This document shows positions 1 to 58,910 of a stretch of DNA of 64,000 nt, piece after piece. Origin of the DNA: Heptranchias perlo (taxonomy: Eukaryota); the NCBI RefSeq assembly GCF_035084215.1, contig NC_090326.1, positions 43,400,001 through 43,464,000 of the forward strand. The letters are read 5' to 3'. The translations under genes were made by a program, and so were the position numbers. Below the pieces are notes generated by a model, which worked only from the letters and a program-made list of their open reading frames with translations, ran no database searches and was not told where the DNA came from. Position 1 is the first letter of the stretch; every line of letters begins with the position of its first letter.

Positions 1-1775
1 AGGAGGCCTTCCAGACATATGCTCAAAAGGCAGTGGGAGGAAGTAGCGGACGAGGTCAATGCCAGGAGCACAGTACCAAGAACATGGATGCAGTGCAGGA
101 AGAAGTTCAATGATTTGACATGAGTTGTCAAGGTGAGTGAGTTCAACTGTCAAGTGGCATCTCCTACCAACTGCACCACTAGCCTCATCCACTGCTCCAC
201 GCACTACACTCCCCCATCACCCACATACCAACAAGCTCTTTCAATCAGTACTCAACTCTTCAAATCAGATGCTTCCTCACACCCTCACACATTACCAATG
301 CAAGCCGCACACCCAGAACTCACAGGTCACACACACTGGCAGCTGTTCAACCATGACAGCCACATCACTCAAACATCTTGCAGGACACCCTCACCGACAC
401 ACTTCCCTCTTTCTTGCAGGAGAAGGTGGCGCATAACAAGAGGCAGCAGGAAAGAACTGGAGGAGGACAGGCACGCCTACACATCCTCACTCCCATCGAG
501 GAGACAGTACTGATCATCATTAGAAGGGCCATCGCTGAGACCGTGGCCACGAGCAGTGTTGGAGGGATCAATGATGAGGGTCTCTGCATACCTAATCCTC
601 CTTCTCGCTTCCCACTTTTCTCTCATCCCACAATCTCTTTTGACTCATGTGCTGCAGATGGTATCAGCTCGCTCTTCTTACTTTCTCCTCTCCCCTCACC
701 ACAACTCAACCAGTGTCCCTTTGTCATTTCAGATACCCAAGAACTGGAACCTGCCCAGTCAGAGGACGATGACAGTGATGATGAAGACACACCATCACTC
801 GATCTTACACTCGCAGCCACCAGCTCAGATACTGACACTGCGAGTAATTTAGAGGCTAGGATAGAGGAGGGATCGGCACGTGGTGAGACACCGGGCACAA
901 GTGCACAGGAGCCAGGGTGGGGGGAACAGATACCACAGTTGCCAGCTCACCGGAGGGCAAGGTCACACACTAGCTCTGCTGCCGAAGAGTCAGATGATGT
1001 CTTTGTTGGGCAAGGCTACAGAAGACGGCTGATGGACATACACCACGAAATGCTTGGGGCACTGGAAAGCCTGCCAGAAAGCCTGCGCACAATGTCAAGA
1101 GGCATGGAGAAGTCCAGCTCCAACTTGGCACAGGGCTTTGCGCAGAGCTTGGAGCCCATCCTCTCCCACATGGAACGGGTGGTCACCTCCATCAGCACAC
1201 CTGTGGAACCCACCATGATACAGCGTCTGATGGCCAATGTCACAGCTTCCATTACAGCACAAACATCTGCCATCAAAGGTCTGACTGCTGTATATGGAGT
1301 ACAGACTGCTGCCCTAGAAGCCCAGATTGCTGCTATTGTGGCATTGGGTACCATTGTTGAAAGGGGCTTCCAGGGCATCACAGCTGTCCAGCAATCTGTT
1401 CTCCAACAGATCACCAAGATTGCTGAAGCACCGCCCCATGAGAGTGGCAGTGGCGCCATAGAAGACGAACCTGCTGTCCTCTCTCAGGATGACAGTATTC
1501 CTGCTGCCACTGTGCCAGTGTCCTTGCTGTTGTCTGTCAGCCAGCCAGGCCAGAATGCTGCTGCCCAGGCCGAGATGGTGCAGTCTGAAGCCGGGCCTCC
1601 CCGGCCCAGAGCTGCTCGAGGTCGTCCTTCGAGACCATCTGCACACTCCTCTATTGAAGGTCAGCAGCCTCCCACCACCCATGCTCCAGCCACTGGGGAT
1701 GCACCTCGTAGGAGCACTAGGAAAGGTAAAGGCACACGAACGACAGGCACTGAGGGAATGCACAAGGGTGAATAG
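1..1775 (+). pseudogene. Harbinger Myb/SANT-like DNA-binding protein gene (spliced; in-frame stop)
   Basis: Frame 1 of 1-132 reads KRQWEEVADEVNARSTVPRTWMQCRKKFNDLT*VVK, followed by a gtgagt donor at 133. Acceptor ttgcag at 419, exon 420-579 EKVAHNKRQQERTGGGQARLHILTPIEE (TGGG motif). Phase-1 intron 580-732 (tttcag), last exon 733-1775 acidic/coiled-coil. TGA at 121-123. Confidence 0.8.
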
Positions 1776-1959: not shown

Positions 1960-3110
1960 TTGATGAGGTTACTGGTATCACTCATTAATAATCTGATCAC
2001 ACAGAGCTCTGGCAGGCAGGGCCTGTACCTTGTAGCCTTCCTGTCTCTTCCTCCACTTCCTGCTTCACTTCCTCCTCCCCCTTCGTCTTTTCCTCCTCCT
2101 CATCCGCCTCTTGCTCAGGTTCTCCCTCATAATGACCAGGTTGTGCAGCATGCAATGACAAATCTTGATACCCACTCAGTTGAGTACTAAAGGGCTCCTC
2201 CAGAGCGGTCCAGGCAGTGGAAGCATTGCTTGAGGATGCCTATGGTGTGCTCGATAATGTTCCGTATGGCAGCATGGCTCTCATTGTACGCCTGCTGAGC
2301 ACGTGTGCATGGGTTCCTGACCGGAGTCATGAGCCACGGCGTGGGGGGATAACCCTTGTCGCCCAGTATCCTGCATTTGCTGGTTGAAATATAGATGGCA
2401 CGTTGGACTGCTGCAGGATGAAGGAATCATGACTTCTGCCAGGATAGCGGGCATTGGCCTGCATGATGCGTTGTGTGTGGTCGCACACCAGCCGCACATT
2501 GAGGGAGTGGAATCCCCTTCTGTTCATGAATATGGCCCAGTTCAGATGTGGAGCAGGCATGGTAATATGCGTGCAGTCAATGGCACCCTGCACCATGGGG
2601 AAGCCTGCAATGCGAGCAAACCCTCATGCTCACTCTTGCTGCTTGTCTCTGGCAAGAGGGAGTGAGATGAATCTGTTTCTCAGTGCGTACAGAGACTCAG
2701 TGACCTCCCTTATACAGCAGCACACTGCAATCTGCGAGATGTTGCTTATATCTCCAGCAGCAGCCTGACATGAGCCAGAGCTGTAAAAATTAAGCACCAC
2801 GGTTACCTTGACAACCACAGGTAATGCTGTCCTTGCCCTGCTCTGAGGCTGTAGTTATGGCTGCAGCAGTTGACAAATTTCAGTCATGACCTCTTTAGTG
2901 AACCGAAGATGTCTGATGCACTGGTGGTCACTGAAGTTGAGGTAAGAGAATTGGTCCCTGAAGACCCTCCTGCTGACTGCCCTGGGCCTCCTCCTCCCTC
3001 TTCTCACAGCTTGTCCTGCTTTGTGTGACCTCTCTTCATTCTCCCAGTCATGTTCAATTCCCAGAGGAAGACCACCCACGTCTGGAAGCAACTTTTTCCA
3101 GCACGCTATT
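1960..3110 (-). pseudogene. HARBI1-like Harbinger transposase (stops and frameshift)
   Basis: Minus-strand fragments FRDQFSYLNFSDHQCIRHLRFTKE, VKVTVVLNFYSSGS, GFPMVQGAIDCTHI, NRRGFHSLNVRLVCD, YPGRSHDSFIL, GDKGYP, RNIIEHTIGILK give the DDE triad of PIF/Harbinger transposases. Confidence 0.9.
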
Positions 3111-3964
3111 TTAAATGCCACTAGCAGCACAGCAAGATCAGCCAGACCACTCTCTATAGAATATAACATCTTTAGCCAAGTATAGGAAACTTCCAAAAAC
3201 ACGTACAATTGCACCAGCAGCCAGAATAATGTAGCAACTAACCCGTAACTCCTGCATGATCTCTTTAAATAGCACTGGTAGAGGGGTCCTCCATGCTGTT
3301 TAACTCCTGTTCAGCTGTGCGAGGTTAAGACAGTGCGTTGGCTGAAGTGTGGAGTTCCAAAATGTCGCCAGCTGCATCAAATCAGCTTTGCAGACTGATT
3401 CATGTCATAATCTCCCTGCTCTGCACGCTGCCGGCGTTCATTAGGCGCGCGCGCAAATGCCTTTACCAAGATGGCGTCCTGTGCATGTCACACCGGACAT
3501 GTGCGTGCTTATCTCGGACGCCATTTTTGGGGCTTAGGAGTCCATGTAGCGCCTACAAAACAGGCACTACACGGCCCAATTTCACCCACATTCTGTTCTA
3601 TGTCAATTAGTCTTATGGGCAGAGTTCATCAAGTGGTAGAAATTGGCTGTGATTCTGTATATACATCTCTCAGTTATAAAATAAAGATGAATGTACAATC
3701 TGAGACTGCCAGACAAGTTGTTTAAATATGCAGATAAATTGATTCAATGGACACAAGTTTTGGATCCTACTAATAGAAACTAAAGATCACTGTGGCTAAT
3801 TCATGCTGTACACTTTCTGAAATGCCAGTGAGCATTAACAAGTAATGTAAACTGTTTGGAATTATCGTGAAATGACTTACCTTTCGTATCACAATGGAAG
3901 CACAGTGGAAAGGTTTATGATGCGTAATATAAACAATGCTCTGAGCTCTGGCAATTTCCATCTA

Positions 3965-12624: not shown

Positions 12625-14922
12625 AAGTGAGAACCAGGCAGAATATAGAAAGTTCAGAGGGGAAGTGAAAAAGGAAATAAGAGGGGCAAAGAGAGAGTAT
12701 GAGAATAGACTGGCAGCCAACATAAAAGGGAATTCAAAAATCTTCTACAGGCATGTAAACAGGTAGTAAAAGGAGGGGTGAGGCCGATTAGGGACCATAA
12801 AGGAGATCTACTCATGGAGGCAGAGGGGATGGCCGAGGTACTAAATGAATACTTCGCATCTGTCTTTACCAAGGAAGAAGATGCTGCCAGAGTCTCAATA
12901 AAGGAAGATATAGTTGATATACTGAATGGGCTGAAAATTGATAAAGAAGAGGCATCAAAAAGTCTAGCTATACTTAAGGTAGATAAGTCACCCGGTCCGG
13001 ATGGGATGCATCCTAGGTTGCTGAGGGAAGTAAGGGTGGAAATTGCGGAGGTACTGGCCATAATCTTCCAAACATCTGTAGACACGGGGGTGGTGCCAGA
13101 GGACTGGAGAATTGCAAATGTTACACCCTTATTCAAAAAAGGGTGTAAGGATAAACCCAGCAACTATAGGCCAGTTAGTTTAACCTCAGTGGTGAGGAAA
13201 CTTTTAGAAACGATAATCCGGGACAGAACTAACAGTCACTTGGACGAGTGTGGATTGATTAGGGAAAGCTACCACGGATTTGTTAAAGGCAAATCGTGTT
13301 TAACTAACCTGATAGAGTTTTTTGATGAGATAACATAAGAACATAAGAAATAGGAGCAGGAGTAGGCCATCCAGCCCCTCGAGCCTGCTCCGCCATTCAA
13401 CAATATCAAGCTGATCTTCTACCTCAACGCCATTTTCCTGCACTATCCCCATTTCCCTTGATGCCTTTAATATCTAGAAATCTATCGATCTCTCTTTTGA
13501 ATGTACTCAAAGACTGAGCCTCCACAGCCCTTTGGGGTAGGGAATTTCAAAGATTCACCACCCTCATCTCAGTCTTAAATGACCTATCCCTTACTCTGAG
13601 ACTGTGACCCCTGGTTCTAGACTCCCCAGCCAGGGGAAACATCCTCCCTGCATCTACCCTGTTGAGCCCTGTAAGAATTTTGTATTGAAGAGACGGTAGA
13701 TGAGGGCAATGCAATTGATGTGGTGTATATGGACTTTCAAAAGGCGTTGATAAAGTGCTGCACGGTAGGCTTATCATCAAGGTTGCGGCCCATGGAATAA
13801 AGGGGGCAGTAGCTACATGGATACAGAATTGGCTAAGTGACAGGAAACAGAGTAGTGGTGAATGGTTGTTTTTCGGACTGGAGGGAGGTGTACAGTGGTG
13901 TTCCCCAGGGGGTTGGTGTTGGGACCACTGCTTTTCTTGATATATATTAATAACTTGGACTTGGGTGCTCAGGGCACAATTTCAAAATTTGCAGATGACA
14001 CAAAACTTGGAAAGGTAGTGAACAGTGAGGAGGATAGTGATAGACTTCAAGAGGATATAGGCAGGCTGGTGGCAAGGGCGGACACGTGGCAGATGAAATT
14101 TAACGCAGAAAAATGTGAAGTGATACATTTCAGTAGGAAGAACGAGGAGAAGCAATATAAACTAGAGGGCACAACTCTAAAAGGAGTACAGGAACAGAGA
14201 AATCTTGGGTATATGTGCACAAATCGTTGAAGATGGCAGGGCAGGTTGAGAAAGCGGTTAAAAAAGAATATGGGATCCTGAGTTTTATAAATAGAGGCAT
14301 AGAGTACAAAAGTATGGAAGTCATGATGAACCTTTATAAAACACTGGTTCGGCCACAACTGGAGTATTGTGTCCAGTTCTGGGCACCCCCGCACTTTAGG
14401 AAAGATGTGAAGGCCTTAGAGAGGGTGCAGAAGAGATTTACCAGAATGATTCCAGGGATGAGGGACTTTAGTTACGTGGATAGACTAGAGTAGCTGGGGT
14501 TGTTCTCCTTGGAACAGAGAAGGCTGCAAGGAGATTTGATTGAGATATTCAAGATCATGAAGGGTCTAAACAGAGTAGATAGAGAGAAACTGTTCCCATT
14601 GGCGGAATGGTCAAGAACCAGAGGACATAGATTTAAGGTGATTGGCAAAAGAACCAAAGGTGACATGAGGAAAAACTTTTTTACACAGTGAATGGTTTAG
14701 GATCTGGAATGCACTGCCCGAGGGGGTGGTGGAGGCAGATTCAATCATGGCCTTCAAAAGGGAACTGGATAAGTACTTGAAAGGAAAAAAATTACAGGTT
14801 ACAGGGATGGGGGGTGGGGGGAGGGGACTAGCTGGATTGCTCTTGCATAGAGCCGGCACGGACTTTGTGGGCCAAATGGCCTCCTTCTGTGCTGTAACCC
14901 TTCTGTGATTCTACTATGATTC
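12625..14922 (+). mobile_element. CR1 LINE (ORF2 3' half) with nested antisense CR1 tail at ~13332-13684
   Basis: LNEYFASVFTKE, KSPGPDGMHPRLLREV, NYRPVSLTSVV, SKFADDTKLG, LYKTLVRPQLEYC; CR1 3' tail. Confidence 0.92.
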
Positions 14923-33610: not shown

Positions 33611-34084
33611 ATTCTCATAATTTGTTTGCAGTAACTTACATAATTCCCATGAAACATCCATAGCTTGAACATTCTCATGAAACCTTGCCAATATCTGTTG
33701 GGGATCAAATAACATACAGAAATTTTCATAGATAGAGAATCCCATCAACAATAAATTCAAGTATAAATGGGATATTAGGGAAACTATTTGAAGTCTATGC
33801 ATAATGCTCTTTGAACTGTAAAGCCATAAGGCCTAAATGCAGTGAATCCACATTTCTAGCATGGAGCTGCAAATGCATGAACTATGGGTTGGAGAATCAT
33901 GGCTACAATGTTGAAAACCTTTCTCTGACCCACTTCTTGCTTTGAGCAAGGCTTTCCCACTGGGAGTGCAAGATTGCAGATTTACTCCATAATCTTTGTC
34001 TCCTCTACTTCACATCCCAGATAAGTGATTTTGATTGACTCAGGAGCCTTTGATGTCTATTTTCTTTGTGTGTAAATGTTACAG

Positions 34085-34206
34085 GAGACACAGTTAACAA
34101 CGCTCCAGTCATGTCTATCAGGACGTTCAGCAGGAATGGCTTGTGCCAAGATACAACGTCACCACATAACCCAAAGGAAGACACAAGCACTGTTGATAAA
34201 CCTGCA
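34085..34206 (+). CDS. MYRIP: MYRIP penultimate coding exon (GDTVNNAPVMSIRTFSRNGLCQDTTSPHNPKEDTSTVDKPA)
   Basis: ttacag acceptor, gtaagc donor, phase 1/0 fits both neighbours. IRTFSRN resembles recalled human IKTFNHN. Confidence 0.8.
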
Positions 34207-36253
34207 GTAAGCTTTTTTAGTTCTTCCAATTTATTATCATTTAACAAATCGAACAATAATGGGCTCTGCCTATACTCTTATTGCACAATTCTAGGTGGAC
34301 AGATTTTGTCCTGAAATCAGCCTGGTGTTTTCAATTTCCCAGTATAGCACGAACACACTATTAGTGACTGCTACTATTTGAGGTACATTCTTGGTTTTCT
34401 GCTTTGTTTAGCTAAATAAAATCACTCTCTGACTCCAAGACTGTCAGTGAACTTTCATAACTGAGACAATGAACAGGGTGACAGAACTCTTGAGTTTCTG
34501 AAAACGTTTATCCAAATGTTCCTATGTGCAGCTTTAAATCTTTTCTGTGCACTGTCAAAACTTAAATGCAGCCAAAGAAGGTGCCAAAACATTGCAAATG
34601 TGGTACTGAGTAGCTACGTAGTAAAACTGCCTGTTAAGTGCTCCATTAGTAGTCGATCATTCAGTGCTAGTTTACATTACACAGTACCACATTAATACAC
34701 TAAGTCAGTTGAGTACAAAGATGTAAGCTCCAACAGTGTGAAACTCTCCTGGTGGCATGGGGTCTCACCAGAGGACGATTCCATAATTGAGTTAATTCAT
34801 TTAATTCATTTAAATAGCCCCTAGCGCAATTTACCATTTGTTTAGGATGGAAATCCACTGTGTTCTCTGCTCACCCACCCAACCTGGGCAAATAGGAAAG
34901 CTCCATGTATGTTTTGCCATCCATTGCTTTTTGACACTCACTTCTTTTGCCCCACAAAGCCTCTGGCAAGCAGCCAAAAGTTATTGACCCCAAAGGTGGT
35001 CGCTTAACGTTTAAATGCCAGTTGCAGCTCTTTAAGAGATGCTAAAACATTGGATATTCCACTCTCTCTCCCCAACAACAGCAGGCTCCCAGCAGGAGGC
35101 CCAGTGCAGGCTGGAGCTCGCCATACATGTGAAATGAGGACAAACCCCAGAAGATCCAGTGGAGTTGTCCATGTGCTGGTCGTGTGGGTGTAAATCCCAA
35201 TACACGCCAAACGCAATGAAAAATCATGGAAATTAGAGCAATATTGGATAGGATAAAAATAAAAGAGGAGGTGCTTAAAAGATTGGCAGTACTCAAAGTA
35301 GAAAAGTCACCCAGTCCAGATGGGATGCCTCCTAGGTTATTGAGGGAAGTAAGGGTGGAAATTGTGGAGGCTCAGGCCACAATCTTCCAATCTTCCTTAG
35401 ATATGGGGGTAGTGCTGGAGGATTGCAAATCTCACAACCCTGTTCAAAAAAAGGGAGAGGGATAAACCCGGCAATTACAAGCCAGTTAGCCTAATGTCGG
35501 TGGTGGGGAAACTTTTAGTCCAGGACAAAATTAATTGACACTTGGAAAAGTATGGGCTAATAAATGAAAGTCAGCACGGATTTGTTAAAGGAAAATCATG
35601 TTTGACTAATTTGATTGAGTTCTTTGATGAAGTAATGGAGAGGTTTGATGAGGGTAGTGTAGTTGATGTTGTGTATTTGGACTTTCAAAAGGCATTTGAT
35701 AAAGTACCACATAATAGACTTGTTAGCAAAATTAAAGCCCATGGAATTAAAGGGACAGTAGCAGCATGGATACAAATTGGCTAAGGGACAGAAAGCAGAG
35801 AGTAGAAGTGAACGGTTGTTTTTCAGACTGGAAGGAAGTATACAGTGGTGTTCCCCAAGGGTTAATTACCTGGACTTGGGTATAAAGGGCATAATTTCAA
35901 AGTTTGCAGATGACACGAAACTTGGAGAGTATTAACAGTGAAGTGGATAGTAACAGACTTCAGGAGGACATAGATAGACTGGTGAAATGGGCAGCCACAT
36001 GGCAGATGAAATTTAACGCAGAGAAGTGTGAAGTGATGCATTTTGGTAGGAAGAATGAGGAGAGGCAATATAAACATAATGTTGCAATTTTAAAGGGGGT
36101 ACAGGAACAGAGAAACCTGGGGGTGCAAATGCACAAATCTTTGAAGGTGGCAGGACAAGTTGAGAAGGCTGTTAAAAAAGCAGATGGGATCCTGGGTTTT
36201 AGTAAGAGAGGCATAGAGTACAAAAATAAGGAAGTTATGCTAAACTTTTATAA

Positions 36254-36442
36254 TGTGGAGATGCCGGTGATGGACTGGGGTGGACAAATGTAAGGAATCT
36301 TACAACACCAGGTTATAGTCCAACAAATTTATTTTCAAATCACAAGCTTTCGGAGATTATCACCTGACGAAGGGGATAATCTCCGAAAGCTTGTGATTTT
36401 AAAATAAATTTGTTGGACTATAACCTGGTGTTGTAAGATTCC
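36254..36442 (+). mobile_element. Palindromic Penelope-derived mini-element with hammerhead motif
   Basis: 12-bp TSD aaacttttataa (36242-36253 and 36443-36454). 68-bp inverted arms at 36294-36361 and 36375-36442. Confidence 0.8.
36359..36397 (+). ncRNA. Minimal type I hammerhead ribozyme motif
   Basis: AUCAC-CUGACGA-A-GGGGA(UAA)UCUCC-GAAA-G-CUU-GUGAU: stem I 5 bp, stem II 5 bp, palindromic AAGCUU in place of stem III, as described for Penelope pLTR hammerheads. Confidence 0.75.
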
Positions 36443-37797
36443 AAACTTTTATAAAACACTGGTTAGGCCTCAGCTGGAGTATTGTGTTCAATTCTGGGCA
36501 CCACACTTTAGGAAGGATGTCAAGGCCTTGGAGAGGGTGCAGCAGAGATTTACTAGAATGGTGCCAAAGATGTGGGACTTCAGTTATGTGGAGAGACTGG
36601 AGAAGTTGGGGTTATCCTCCTTAGAACGGAGAAGGTTAAGGGGATACTTGATAGAGGTGTTCAAGATCATGAATGGTTTTGATAGAGTAAATAAGGAGAA
36701 ACTGTTTCCAGTGACAGAAGGGTCAGTAACCAGAGGACACAGATTTAAGGTGATCGGCAAAAGAGCCAGAGGCGACGTGAGGAAACAGTTTTTTTACGCA
36801 GCAAGTTGTAATGATCTGGAACGCACTGCCTGAAAGGGTGGTGGAAGCAGGCTCAATAGTAACTTTCAAAAGGGAACTAGATAAATATTAAAGGGAAAAA
36901 ATTTACAGGGTGATGGGGAAAGAGCAGGGAAGTGGGACTAATTGGATAGCTCTTTCAAAGAGCCGGCATAGGCACGATGGGCTGAATGGCCTCCTCCTGT
37001 ATTGTTCCTACTATGATACTATAAACTACTCCATAATGTAGAAACTCCCTTATTATCTAATTGGATGGCTGTTACTTTAAATGTTTTGATTTACCACTTT
37101 GCATCAGCATCTACCTGGGAAAACACAGATTTCTATGCCACTGCCATTAAATGAACTTCATGACTGCCTGCAGGAGATGCAGTTCACAAGTGGTTGAACT
37201 GGATGCCCATTTTTCTTCCCTCTTTGAAAGTGCAGTATTCTTTTTAATAGCCCAACTAAGAATTGCACAACATGGATGAAAAATCTTGCAGAGCATACTA
37301 TTCTCCCAAATTCCCAATATATGATCCTGTTGCATGATGCTCTGTGCCAGGAGCAGTAATTTGTAAAATCTACCCATTAGTACTGAACTAGGGATAGTTT
37401 TCTGATGTAAGCTCATGTGTACTAGGAACTGAGTTGATAATTCCCAAACCCTTTCAGCCAAGACCCAGCCATCTAAGAGAAAATGGGAACTTTCAGCCCA
37501 TCAGTCTGTATGGGATAGTGCTGTAACGCACCTTGTCACCCAGTTGCCTATTGCTAGAGATTTTAGTAGTAATTTAAAAAATAATAATTTCAGGACTGCA
37601 GTAATTATAGAATGTTATATAGAACATCATATTACAGAAACAGAGCGTCTGGCCTATCAAGGCTATCAAAGTATGAAAGTTCAAATGATGTTTTGTACAT
37701 GACAATAAATCGGATAAAACATTGTGATAAAAGAATTGAAGTTTCCCTTTCTATACCTTGACTTGTCAATGAATTCTTTCTCTATCTTCTGCTGCAG

Positions 37798-37815
37798 AAG
37801 CCTGTACCATACTGA
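37798..37815 (+). CDS. MYRIP: MYRIP terminal coding exon (KPVPY*)
   Basis: Strong pyrimidine tract + ctgcag acceptor, phase 0, terminal Tyr then TGA; followed by unique UTR-like sequence. Confidence 0.72.
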   Translation, partial: KPVPY

Positions 37816-55527: not shown

Positions 55528-56275
55528 TCAGGTGAAACAGCGATTTGTTTGGACTTCTTTCAATTTAGTATACTGTATTCTCTGCTCACAATGTGGTCTC
55601 CTTTACACTGGGGAGACCAAACACAGATTGGGTGATCGCTTTGCTGAACACTTCTGCTCAGTCCGCAAGCGTGACCCTGATCTTCTGGTCACTTGCCATT
55701 TTAACTCTCTATCCCACTGCTACTCTGACCTCTCTGTCCTCAGCCTCCTACACTTCCAATGAAACTCAACGGAAGCTCGAGGAACAGCACCTCATCTTTC
55801 AATTAGGCACTTTACAACCTTCTGGACTCAATAATGATTTCAGTAACTTCAGATCATAACTGCTGCTTCCATTTTTCCCGACAGCAGGTGCTGGTAATGG
55901 TTCTGCTGTTGCCATTTACAGCTCCTCTAAACCGATCTTTTTTTTCTTAACTTGTCCCATTACCACCCTCCTTGCTTTACACCATCGTCCCATTTGTCAT
56001 TTAATCACTCCTGCCTCCACCCTAACACCAGACCTTCCCTTTTGTTCTTTCCTCCCCTCCCCTTCCTTCCCTCCCCCACCCCCACCCCTTTTGCCTGGCT
56101 CCGTACCTGCTTAAAACTGTAAAACCTTTAACTTCTTCCAATTCTGACGAGAGGTCATCGACCTGAAACGTTAACTCTGTTTCTTTCGCCACAGATGCTG
56201 CATGACTTGCTGAGTATTGCCAGCATTTTCTGTTTTTATTTCAGATTTCCAGCATCCACAGTATTTTGCTTTTGA
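55528..56275 (+). mobile_element. Penelope-like element 3' end (GIY-YIG endonuclease + pLTR)
   Basis: NLVYCILCSQCGLLYTGETKHRLGDRFAEH...RKLEEQHLIFQLGTLQPSGLN; downstream hammerhead-like core at 56144-56173. Confidence 0.88.
56140..56178 (+). ncRNA. Minimal hammerhead motif (stem I weakened)
   Basis: CUGACGA-G-AGGUC(AUC)GACCU-GAAA-C-GUU with palindrome AACGUU. Confidence 0.6.
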
Positions 56276-57439: not shown

Positions 57440-58910
57440 CAATAGCCAGCATGGATTTGTAAAGGTTAGGTCATGCCTGACAAACCTAATTGGATTTTTT
57501 GAAAAGGTAACTAAAGCAGTGGACAGGGGAATGTCTATGGATGTTATTTATATGGACTTCCAGAAGGCATTTGATGAAGCCCCTCATAAGAGACTGTTAG
57601 CTAAAGTCAAAGCTCATGGAATTGAGGGCAAATTATTGACCTGGTTAGGAAATTAGCTGAGCAGTAGGAGACAGAGAGTAGGGATAATGGGCAGGTACTC
57701 AAATTGGCAGGATGTGATTAGTGGTGTCCCACAGGGATCTGTGTTGGGGCCTCAACTATTCACTGTATTTATTAACGACTTAGACGACGGGATAGAGAGC
57801 CACATATCCAAGTCTGCCGATGACACTAAGATAAATGTAAGGAATCTTACAACACCAGGTTATAGTCCAACAGTTTTATTTGAAAATTACAAGCTTTCGG
57901 AGGCTTTCTCCTATAACCTGGTGTTGTAAGATTCCTTACATTTGTCCACCCCAGTCCTTCACCGGCATCTCCACATCATGGCTACTATCGACAACACAAA
58001 GATAGGCAGCATCGTAAGCAATGTAGAAGGAAGCATAAAATTACAGAGAGATATTAATAGATTAAGTGAATGGGCAAAACTGTGGCAAATGGATTTCAAT
58101 GTAGGCAAGTGTTAGGTCACCCACTTTGGACCTTAAAAGGATAGATCAGAGTACTTTCTAAATGGTGAATAGCTCGAAACAGTGGAGGCCCAAAGAGACT
58201 TAGGTGGTCCATGTACATAGATCATTAAAATGTCATGAACAGGTACAGAAAATAATCAAAAAGGCTAATGGAATACTGGCCTTTATATCTAGAGGACTAG
58301 AATACAAGGGGGTAGAAGTTATGCTACAGCTATACAAAGCCCTGGTTAGACCACACCTGGACTAGTGTGTTCAGTTCTGGGCACCGCACCTTAGGAATGA
58401 TATATTGGCCTTGGAGGGAGTGCAGCGTAGATTTACTAAAATGATACCTGGACTCCAAGGGTTAAATTACGAGGAGAGATTACACAAACTAGGGTTGTAT
58501 TCCCTGGAATTTAGAAGATTAAGGGGTAATTTGGTCGAAGTTTTCAAGATATTAAGGGGAACTGATAGGGTGGATAGAGAGAAACTACTTCCACTGGTTG
58601 GGGAGTCTAGAACTAGGGGACATAGCCTAAAAATTAGAGCCAGGACTTTCAGGAGTGAAGTTAAGAAATACTTCTACATGCAAAGGGTGGTAGAAGTTTG
58701 GAACTCTCTTCTGCAAAATGCAGTTGATGCTAGGTCAATTGTTAATTTTAAATCTGAGATTGATAGATTATTGTTAATTAAAGGCAATAAGGGATATGGG
58801 GCTAAGGATATGGAGTTAGGTCATAGATCAGCCATGATTTCATTGAATGGAGGAACAGGCTTGTGTGGCTAAATGGCCGACCCCTGTTCCTATCTTCCTG
58901 TGTTCCTAAT
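57440..58910 (+). mobile_element. CR1 LINE, interrupted at ~57834-57990
   Basis: [38 protein letters not shown]; same subfamily as 5530-6293. Lies in the PRLH2 intron. Confidence 0.92.
57834..57990 (-). mobile_element. Second copy of the palindromic Penelope mini-element (loop deleted)
   Basis: Shares gtaaggaatcttacaacaccaggttatagtccaaca and the reverse complement of tgtggagatgccggtga-ggactggggtggacaaatg with 36254-36442. Imperfect TSD acactaagata / acacaaagata. Confidence 0.8.

What the first reader, a model, noticed from the sequence alone, without database searches (positions are those of the whole stretch)
36242..36454. 189-bp palindromic mobile element carrying an intact minimal hammerhead ribozyme
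Seen: clean 12-bp TSD; 68-bp inverted arms with one mismatch; the 13-nt loop plus right arm spell AUCAC-CUGACGA-stemII-GAAA-G-CUU-GUGAU, with both stems pairing and a palindromic AAGCUU. Known: Penelope-like elements carry minimal type I hammerheads that cleave as dimers, and their insertions often have an inverted partial pLTR. Inference: a non-coding, retrozyme-like unit mobilised in trans. It lies in sense orientation in the last MYRIP intron, where the long hairpin and the ribozyme fold are mutually exclusive, so it could behave as a structural switch.
Basis: partly seen in the sequence, partly recalled or inferred. Interest (0 to 1): 0.75.

Follow-up and report, generated by a model that had tools for sequence, protein, structure and literature searches.

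The report
Short fold-back Penelope retroelement insertion
A 189-base palindrome with a hammerhead-ribozyme motif sits in a shark gene intron, and it is likely an ordinary truncated stump left by a Penelope-like jumping gene, with the ribozyme predicted to be locked shut by the hairpin rather than acting as a switch.

Summary
The anatomy is confirmed: a 12-bp target duplication, 189-bp insert, 68-bp arms with one mismatch, 13-nt loop and a minimal hammerhead motif (cut site 36392^36393), in sense orientation in the last MYRIP intron (34207-37797) of a shark. It interrupts an older LINE (CR1-type). The interpretation mostly fails. A second family copy at 57834-57993 shares none of its ends, junction or target duplication, and lacks the ribozyme core. 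Public contigs show seven further, different inversion joints. So these are likely truncated Penelope-like (PLE) insertions: the 3' end of a pseudo-LTR, joined head-to-head to an inverted copy with a 40-nt 'tail'. That layout is described in print. There is one ribozyme and no tandem unit, so it is not a retrozyme. The hairpin beats the ribozyme fold by about 39 kcal/mol and its arm is transcribed first, so a switch is unlikely. Likely mechanism: both staggered nicks primed cDNA on PLE RNA, and the two short cDNAs were joined by 2-3 bp of microhomology. The parent ORF was not recovered, and the share of copies with this exact junction was not measurable. This scan noted the same kind of element before on other DNA (e1-7858806, e1-9995956). 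Interest is low.

The parts
36242..36253 (+). Left target-site duplication (AAACTTTTATAA, AT-rich)
   Evidence: single in paralogous LINE copies
36254..36293 (-). 40-nt unpaired PLE 'tail' on the inverted copy; ends 3 nt before the ATG seen in copy 2
   Evidence: 39 of 40 identical to copy 2
36294..36361 (-). Inverted 5'-truncated pLTR copy (left arm, 68 bp), truncated inside hammerhead stem II
36359..36361 (.). Inversion junction; 2-3 nt (TC or ATC) fit both pieces (microhomology, inferred)
36362..36374 (+). 13-nt loop, the part of the forward copy not duplicated in the inverted copy
36359..36397 (+). Minimal type I hammerhead motif; predicted cut between 36392 and 36393; activity untested
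   Evidence: features as in PMC4209133
36375..36442 (+). Right arm: forward pLTR 3' piece without tail; holds AATAAA at 36403-36408
36443..36454 (+). Right target-site duplication
35230..37080 (+). Older degenerate LINE ORF2/3' remnant interrupted by the insert (ends approximate; 'CR1' label from my own knowledge)
   Evidence: RVT_1 E 6e-4, below cut-off; 85-88% to the copy at 14216-14448
34082..34206 (+). Penultimate coding exon of MYRIP
37798..37815 (+). Coding part of the last MYRIP exon (KPVPY*)
57823..58004 (.). Second copy of the family: 160-bp insert 57834-57993, 11-bp TSD with one mismatch, opposite layout, no catalytic core, tail running 16 nt past an ATG at 57978

Best explanation
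This is likely a dead-on-arrival, heavily 5'-truncated insertion of an abundant shark Penelope-like retrotransposon: an 84-nt forward piece of the hammerhead-bearing pseudo-LTR end is joined head-to-head to a 108-nt inverted piece that carries a 40-nt tail. Shown: the two pieces, the tail, the TSD, the host LINE and differently built sister copies. Inferred mechanism (about 0.6 for this detail): the element's GIY-YIG endonuclease nicked both strands 12 nt apart at an AT-rich site. The top-strand end primed cDNA from the outer internal start site on PLE RNA (tail end, 36254 onward). The bottom-strand end primed from the inner site 40 nt upstream (36442 inward). Both cDNAs stopped early, in or near the hammerhead, and were joined through 2-3 bp of microhomology; repair then gave the 12-bp TSD. 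The palindrome is thus made during each insertion and is not an inherited unit. The hammerhead is a passenger: in the MYRIP pre-mRNA it is predicted to be sequestered in the hairpin, and it has no same-strand partner for the dimeric fold.
For: Layout matches the published PLE insertion unit: adjacent inverted 5'-truncated copy, 30-40 bp tail at one end, short TSD, head-to-head geometry (PMC8557442; PMC3846280). The anole PLE protein nicks and extends both strands at AT-rich DNA and starts at two internal sites that delimit the tail (PMC11167929). Copy 2 has ends at about -36 and +16 relative to the ATG versus -43 and -3 here, a tail of about 51 versus 40 nt, a different junction (2-nt CT overlap), a different TSD and no core. 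In one search, 7 of 15 listed joints link the inverted arm or tail (six different break points, 36274-36320) to the core (36358-36365). The motif has the diagnostic features of PLE minimal hammerheads. A sister subfamily has stem II GGAG..CTCC in place of GGGG..CTCC, which keeps the pairing. Ribozyme fold: ddG +39.3 kcal/mol in the insert, but stems I and II form (pair probabilities 0.5-1.0) once the left arm is absent.
Against: The parent ORF (RT plus GIY-YIG) was not recovered; the link to an ORF rests on ATG plus four codons in copy 2 and a weak loose-end consensus in X6 (agreement 0.43). No genome was held, so only 2 whole copies were examined. The contig joints have short sides (22-30 nt), 1-2 contigs each, at 85% likeness; 8 more joints were not shown. 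Contigs with this exact junction would be laid without a joint, so their share is unknown. Arkhipova et al. 2013 prefer self-priming to explain such inversions.
Confidence: 0.85

Rival explanations
1. Same ordinary PLE stump, but the inversion arose by snap-back: the tail-less cDNA folded on itself at the hammerhead core and copied itself, then annealed to a short top-strand cDNA that supplied the tail. This is a variant of the mechanism within the best explanation, not a different identity.
For: The cDNA can form ATC/GAT plus CCT/AGG pairs around a 5-nt loop. In 2 of 2 window copies the unduplicated centre belongs to the tail-less piece. Self-priming was proposed for PLE palindromes (PMC3846280).
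Against: The hairpin available to a cDNA ending at 36359 is only -1.2 kcal/mol, no better than shuffles (133 of 200 as stable). Copy 2 would need a snap-back on 2 bp across a loop of about 50 nt. A single-primer snap-back cannot put the tail on the arm that lacks the loop (sequence logic).
Confidence: 0.3
2. A discrete non-autonomous palindromic unit (retrozyme-like or MITE-like) transcribed and copied en bloc by PLE proteins in trans.
For: The insert keeps the tail region and the hammerhead; pLTR sequence alone can suffice for mobilisation in trans (PMC3846280). The family end is abundant in runs X1, X8 and X6. The share of copies with this junction was not measured.
Against: Copy 2 shares no boundary; seven other junctions are seen in contigs. 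One hammerhead, no tandem unit, whereas non-LTR retrozymes are tandem repeats with a hammerhead in each unit. A 68-bp hairpin would bury the RT start region (inference).
Confidence: 0.07
3. A co-opted structural switch or self-cleaving regulatory element in the MYRIP last intron.
For: Sense orientation in the last intron is real; the core is intact; the anole PLE hammerhead is activated by its own protein.
Against: The two folds differ by 32-39 kcal/mol and the blocking arm is transcribed first. Metazoan minimal hammerheads show no cleavage as monomers and little as dimers. The insert looks young (identical TSDs, 1 of 68 arm mismatch) and lies inside a dead LINE, about 2 kb and 1.35 kb from the splice sites. 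An intact core is expected in a young copy without selection.
Confidence: 0.02
4. A DNA-transposon MITE or a microRNA precursor.
For: Long hairpin; sub-threshold matches to several miRNA models.
Against: All Rfam matches are far below gathering scores (best 69 of 140 bits) and reflect the hairpin only. The inverted repeat is not terminal on the left (40-nt tail). TSDs of 12 and 11 bp and the ends differ between copies.
Confidence: 0.02

Closest known systems
Insertion units of endonuclease-positive Penelope-like elements (Penelope/Poseidon, Neptune): pLTR + inverted 5'-truncated copy + tail + TSD (PMC3846280, PMC8557442, PMC11167929)
   Same: Head-to-head inverted copy, 40-nt tail on one end only, 12-bp TSD at AT-rich DNA, variable 5' truncation, pLTR end running into a candidate ORF start, hammerhead near the 3' end.
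   Different: Extremely short (189 bp), no ORF; hammerhead about 130 nt upstream of the candidate ATG, whereas in the anole element it overlaps the start codon and RT starts 111-118 nt into the ORF. The clade of the parent was not determined.
Minimal type I hammerheads of metazoan PLEs (Cervera and de la Pena 2014, PMC4209133)
   Same: [quoted passage not shown]
   Different: Helix II is 5 bp (7-8 bp in the Schistosoma families). No shark term was found in the two supplementary files searched; file 1 could not be searched.
Non-LTR retrozymes (PMC7229834; bioRxiv 10.64898/2026.07.22.740005)
   Same: Non-coding, low GC, type I hammerhead, related to PLE pLTRs, TSD longer than 4 bp, size in the same range.
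   Different: Not a head-to-tail tandem, one hammerhead only, so no unit-length or circular RNA can be excised in cis; copies have no fixed unit.
Twin priming of L1 (recalled, no call)
   Same: Both nicked strands prime cDNA; inversion joined by microhomology; TSD retained.
   Different: In L1 the two cDNAs copy different parts of one RNA; here 68 nt are copied twice, which needs two RNAs, sequential use of one RNA, or snap-back.

Membership tests
EN+ Penelope-like element insertion | Hammerhead motif in the pLTR near the 3' end | tested here: met
   features listed
EN+ Penelope-like element insertion | Adjacent inverted 5'-truncated copy, head-to-head | tested here: met
   both window copies
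EN+ Penelope-like element insertion | 30-40 bp tail at one end only | tested here: met
   40 nt here; about 51 nt in copy 2
EN+ Penelope-like element insertion | Short TSD at AT-rich target | tested here: met
   12 bp, 11 of 12 A/T; empty sites seen in paralogous LINE copies
EN+ Penelope-like element insertion | Variable 5' truncation among copies | tested here: met
   2 of 2 window copies differ; 7 of 15 listed contig joints give other junctions
EN+ Penelope-like element insertion | Parent with a single ORF encoding PLE RT and GIY-YIG endonuclease, starting at the pLTR end | tested here: inconclusive
   Only ATG plus four codons at 57978; no genome held; pattern scans empty
Minimal type I hammerhead (PLE type) | Core CUGANGA..GAAA..UH, extra nt 9/10.1, G10.1-C11.1, palindromic 15.2-16.2, helix I 4-5 bp | tested here: met
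   against PMC4209133
Minimal type I hammerhead (PLE type) | Self-cleavage (as dimer or protein-assisted) | not testable with these tools
   bench assay needed
Rfam hammerhead families | Covariance-model score at or above gathering | tested here: not met
   no hammerhead family at E<=10; expected for a motif with no loop 3 (inference)
Non-LTR retrozyme | Head-to-tail tandem units, each with a type I hammerhead | tested here: not met
   one motif, inverted layout; definition
Non-LTR retrozyme | Fixed unit length among copies | tested here: not met
   189 versus 160 bp with no shared boundary; other junctions; full census not possible
Non-LTR retrozyme | Expressed as unit-length linear and circular RNA | not testable with these tools
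   only contigs of guessed RNA runs were available
RNA structural switch | Two alternative folds of comparable energy or a kinetic window for the weaker fold | tested here: not met
   ddG 39.3 kcal/mol; 32-33 kcal/mol in truncated nascent transcripts
MITE | Terminal inverted repeats at both ends and fixed ends/TSD length | tested here: not met
   40-nt unpaired left end; ends and TSD differ between copies

The most novel reading that the evidence does not exclude
Among the many one-off stumps, this particular hammerhead-centred palindrome (fixed 36254/36442 ends and 13-nt loop) is a master unit that was itself transcribed and re-inserted en bloc by PLE proteins, a hairpin-type non-autonomous PLE derivative whose ribozyme is unmasked only when the element's protein binds.
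Probability: 0.07. Interest if true: 0.55.

Novelty: new member of a known kind. Interest (0 to 1): 0.15.

Why it matters
As it stands it is ordinary: one more truncated PLE insertion in a shark intron, with no sign of function. Two modest uses remain. First, very short two-armed copies record where each cDNA started and stopped, so a census could separate two-primer joining from snap-back in the still unresolved PLE integration pathway; in 2 of 2 copies here the tail-less cDNA reaches further 5'. Second, such intronic hairpins are likely dsRNA substrates for ADAR; Penelope is reported as the massively edited LINE-type repeat in lizard (PMC5625713). If the en-bloc reading were true it would add a hairpin-shaped class of non-autonomous PLE derivatives.

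Tried and rejected
Whole-genome copy census: no genome is held. Exact-pattern scans found nothing in metagenome contigs or viral contigs, as expected for shark DNA. Rfam gave no hammerhead family, only sub-threshold miRNA hairpin matches. No RNA holder was listed on record; X8 is only guessed to be RNA and is contigs, so it was not used for or against expression. A>G differences at 36297 and 36326 occur in DNA runs too, so they are not editing evidence. Summed contig depth was not used as copy number. The clustering of joint end points at 36358-36365 was not taken as a truncation hotspot, because the laid stretch holds no native sequence upstream of 36360. Raw reads of X22 gave only 10 reads. 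Trying to reach PLE proteins through the GIY-YIG remnant at 55569-55757 failed: 0 hits, 2 weak hits; that remnant belongs to another family in any case. The arm-identity count was out of register (14 of 71) and was discarded in favour of the alignment (5 differences over about 69 nt). The minimum-energy cofold of two 39-nt motifs showed intermolecular pairing (-27.0 versus 2 x -9.5 kcal/mol), but this is not a test of the active double-hammerhead. Literature searches listed no paper on this shark family or on twin priming by PLEs; Repbase and Dfam could not be searched, so the family may well be catalogued. Earlier-findings look-ups by sequence, by genome and by a second word set were empty.

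Full report
Observation. The sequence is as described. AAACTTTTATAA is repeated exactly at 36242-36253 and 36443-36454 around a 189-bp insert. The arms are 36294-36361 and 36375-36442, 68 bp with one mismatch, around the 13-nt loop ACCTGACGAAGGG. The first 40 bp of the insert are unpaired. As RNA the insert folds into one hairpin of -123.2 kcal/mol (z -20). The loop and right arm spell a type I hammerhead: stem I 36359-63/36393-97, CUGACGA, an extra A, a 5-bp stem II, GAAA, G, CUU, with the predicted cut after 36392. A descriptor of my own finds it once in the window and never in 100 resampled windows. Rfam does not detect it.

Setting. The window is shark DNA: a MYRIP exon matches chondrichthyan proteins best, and the penultimate exon is identical over 41 residues to the Heptranchias perlo entry P0002. 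That exon (34082-34206) ends in a GTAAG donor and the last coding exon KPVPY* begins at 37798 on +. So the insert is in sense in the last intron, as claimed. It interrupts the ORF2 remnant of an older LINE (EVML|NFYKTLVRPQLEYC; CR1 label from my own knowledge). A paralogous LINE copy at 14216-14448 has the target once, and 152 X1 contigs continue from 36253 directly into the right flank, so the duplication is a true TSD. Identical TSDs and 1 of 68 arm mismatches, inside a host 85-88% identical to its paralogue, suggest a young insertion (inference).

A second copy decides much of the question. BLAST of the insert against the window gives one other copy, at 57834-57993, also inside a LINE RT remnant. 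It is 160 bp with an 11-bp TSD (one mismatch). Taking the ATG at 57978 as +1, copy 1 ends at -3 and -43 and copy 2 at +16 and about -36, so the tails are 40 and about 51 nt. In copy 1 the inverted piece stops inside stem II and the forward piece starts at stem I. In copy 2 the longer piece stops at the start of stem II, the other starts at CTATAACC, and the catalytic core is missing. No boundary is shared. The tails are 39 of 40 identical; the shared arm differs at 5 of about 69 positions.

Public runs. I laid four runs on 36130-36397 at 85% likeness. X1 gave 25,038 contigs, X8 2,592, X6 10,241 and X22 10 raw reads, these counts including the LINE flank. Of 15 listed joints (8 more not shown), 7 lie in the LINE flank, 1 changes strand, and 7 link the inverted arm or tail, broken at 36274, 36285, 36309, 36312 (twice), 36317 and 36320, to the hammerhead core at 36358-36365. 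These are other inversion junctions, each in 1-2 contigs with 22-30 nt on the short side, so individually weak. At 36360, 101 X1 contigs have loose, heterogeneous upstream letters (agreement 0.41), which suggests that A36359 is not native and that native stem I is 4 bp. At 36355, 25 X1 contigs continue into a sister hammerhead whose stem II is GGAG..CTCC, as in copy 2; the pairing is kept. In X6, 83 contigs have loose ends at the tail tip (36253), and their weak consensus ends in letters that fit the CATG continuation of copy 2. Limits: contigs carrying this exact junction are laid without a joint, so their share is unknown; depth is not copy number; no genome was held.

What it is. The layout is the published PLE insertion unit. 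Craig et al. 2021 (PMC8557442; passages) describe an inverted 5'-truncated copy adjacent to the pLTR and a 30-40 bp tail at one end. Arkhipova et al. 2013 (PMC3846280; passages) describe inverted pLTRs with 8-10 bp TSDs, a 31-bp tail that continues into the ORF, and head-to-head palindromes. Cervera and de la Pena 2014 (PMC4209133; parts 1-2 of 4) define the minimal hammerhead with an extra base between positions 9 and 10.1, a G10.1-C11.1 pair and palindromic 15.2-16.2. They say most such motifs are single and probably belong to truncated PLEs, some lying 100-700 bp apart on opposite strands. All these features are met here. Their supplementary file 1 could not be searched and may list shark motifs. 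Goubert et al. 2022 (PMC8969392; passages) give the same picture as a curation guide.

How it likely formed. Frangieh et al. 2024 (PMC11167929; parts 1-2 of 4) show that the anole PLE protein cuts and extends both strands at AT-rich DNA, starts at two internal RNA sites that delimit the tail, is predicted to be a dimer, and does not need hammerhead cleavage for insertion. Applied here (inference): the top-strand 3' end after the TSD primed a 108-nt cDNA from the outer site, which reads as 36254-36361. The bottom-strand end primed an 84-nt cDNA from the inner site, 36442 to 36359. Their 3' ends overlap by TC or ATC and were joined. Copy 2 fits with a CT overlap. This accounts for TSD, tail, head-to-head geometry and variable lengths. 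The snap-back alternative is weaker: the hairpin open to the truncated cDNA is -1.2 kcal/mol, no better than shuffles, and a single-primer snap-back cannot put the tail on the loop-less arm. It is not excluded as a two-primer variant. My search for twin priming with Penelope listed 3 papers, none on this by title or abstract start (listing only).

Retrozyme and switch readings. Non-LTR retrozymes are tandem repeats with a type I hammerhead in each unit (PMC7229834, passages; bioRxiv 10.64898/2026.07.22.740005, parts 1-3 of 5; its supplements not seen). This insert has one motif and an inverted layout, and its sister copies have no fixed unit. For the switch, forcing stems I and II costs 39.3 kcal/mol in the insert or with 100-nt flanks, and 32-33 kcal/mol in nascent RNAs ending at 36397 that include at least 25 nt of the left arm. 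With the arm removed the stems form with probability 0.5-1.0. The folds are mutually exclusive, but the hairpin always wins and its arm is made first. Minimal hammerheads also show no monomer cleavage and low dimer cleavage in vitro. The likeliest RNA-level effect is a long intronic dsRNA; Penelope is reported as massively edited in lizard (PMC5625713, passages), which I did not test here.

Against my reading. The parent ORF was not recovered, so PLE membership rests on structure and five codons. Only two whole copies were examined. An en-bloc amplified subset is not excluded (about 7%).

Earlier notes. Two follow-up reports of this scan on other genomes reached the same verdict for similar palindromes (e1-7858806, e1-9995956). 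My reading was logged before I saw them, and they are not independent support.

Verdict. Real feature, known kind, interpretation partly right. New member of a known kind; interest 0.15.

Noticed in passing
window 55545-56260 (+): Remnant of a different PLE family: a GIY-YIG fragment (Pfam E 3e-4, just below cut-off) followed by a 3' region with its own hammerhead-like core CTGACGA..stem II..GAAACGTT at 56144-56174; stem I is short, so it failed my stricter descriptor.
   Followed up: partly
window 57823-58004: Second copy of the family, also inserted in a LINE RT remnant; 2 of 2 copies in the window sit in LINE remnants, which may only reflect how much of the window is LINE.
   Followed up: yes
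tables 5 and 5c, joints 36181->36250 and 36193->36250 (X1): Single contigs join the LINE flank to the family tail about 45-70 bp upstream of this site, one through a TTTATAA-like stretch; possibly other insertions at a neighbouring AT-rich target in paralogous LINE copies.
   Followed up: no
table 5c, joints 36321->36253 (depth 288), 36323->36287, 36323->36289 (X1): Joints that go back within the arm and tail suggest short head-to-tail tandems of the pLTR end without the hammerhead; the first has well above single-locus depth and could be a small satellite.
   Followed up: no
table 2, X8, 36256-36291: In the run guessed to be RNA, summed contig depth peaks over the tail, well above the arm and the hammerhead, recalling the pLTR-ORF junction peak reported for the anole element; contigs cannot show level, so this is only a lead.
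   Followed up: no
window 36403-36408 (+): AATAAA in sense inside the right arm, within the last MYRIP intron; predicted to be buried in the hairpin.
   Followed up: no
window 34206/37798: The MYRIP coding sequence ends in a five-codon exon (KPVPY*) 3.6 kb downstream of the penultimate exon; several database shark and ray proteins end differently, consistent with missed or alternative last exons.
   Followed up: partly
window 357-1775 (+) and 2855-3310 (-): A 472-codon open frame facing a transposase-like fragment; looks like a PIF/Harbinger-type DNA transposon (label from my own knowledge; Pfam gave no significant hit for the long frame).
   Followed up: no
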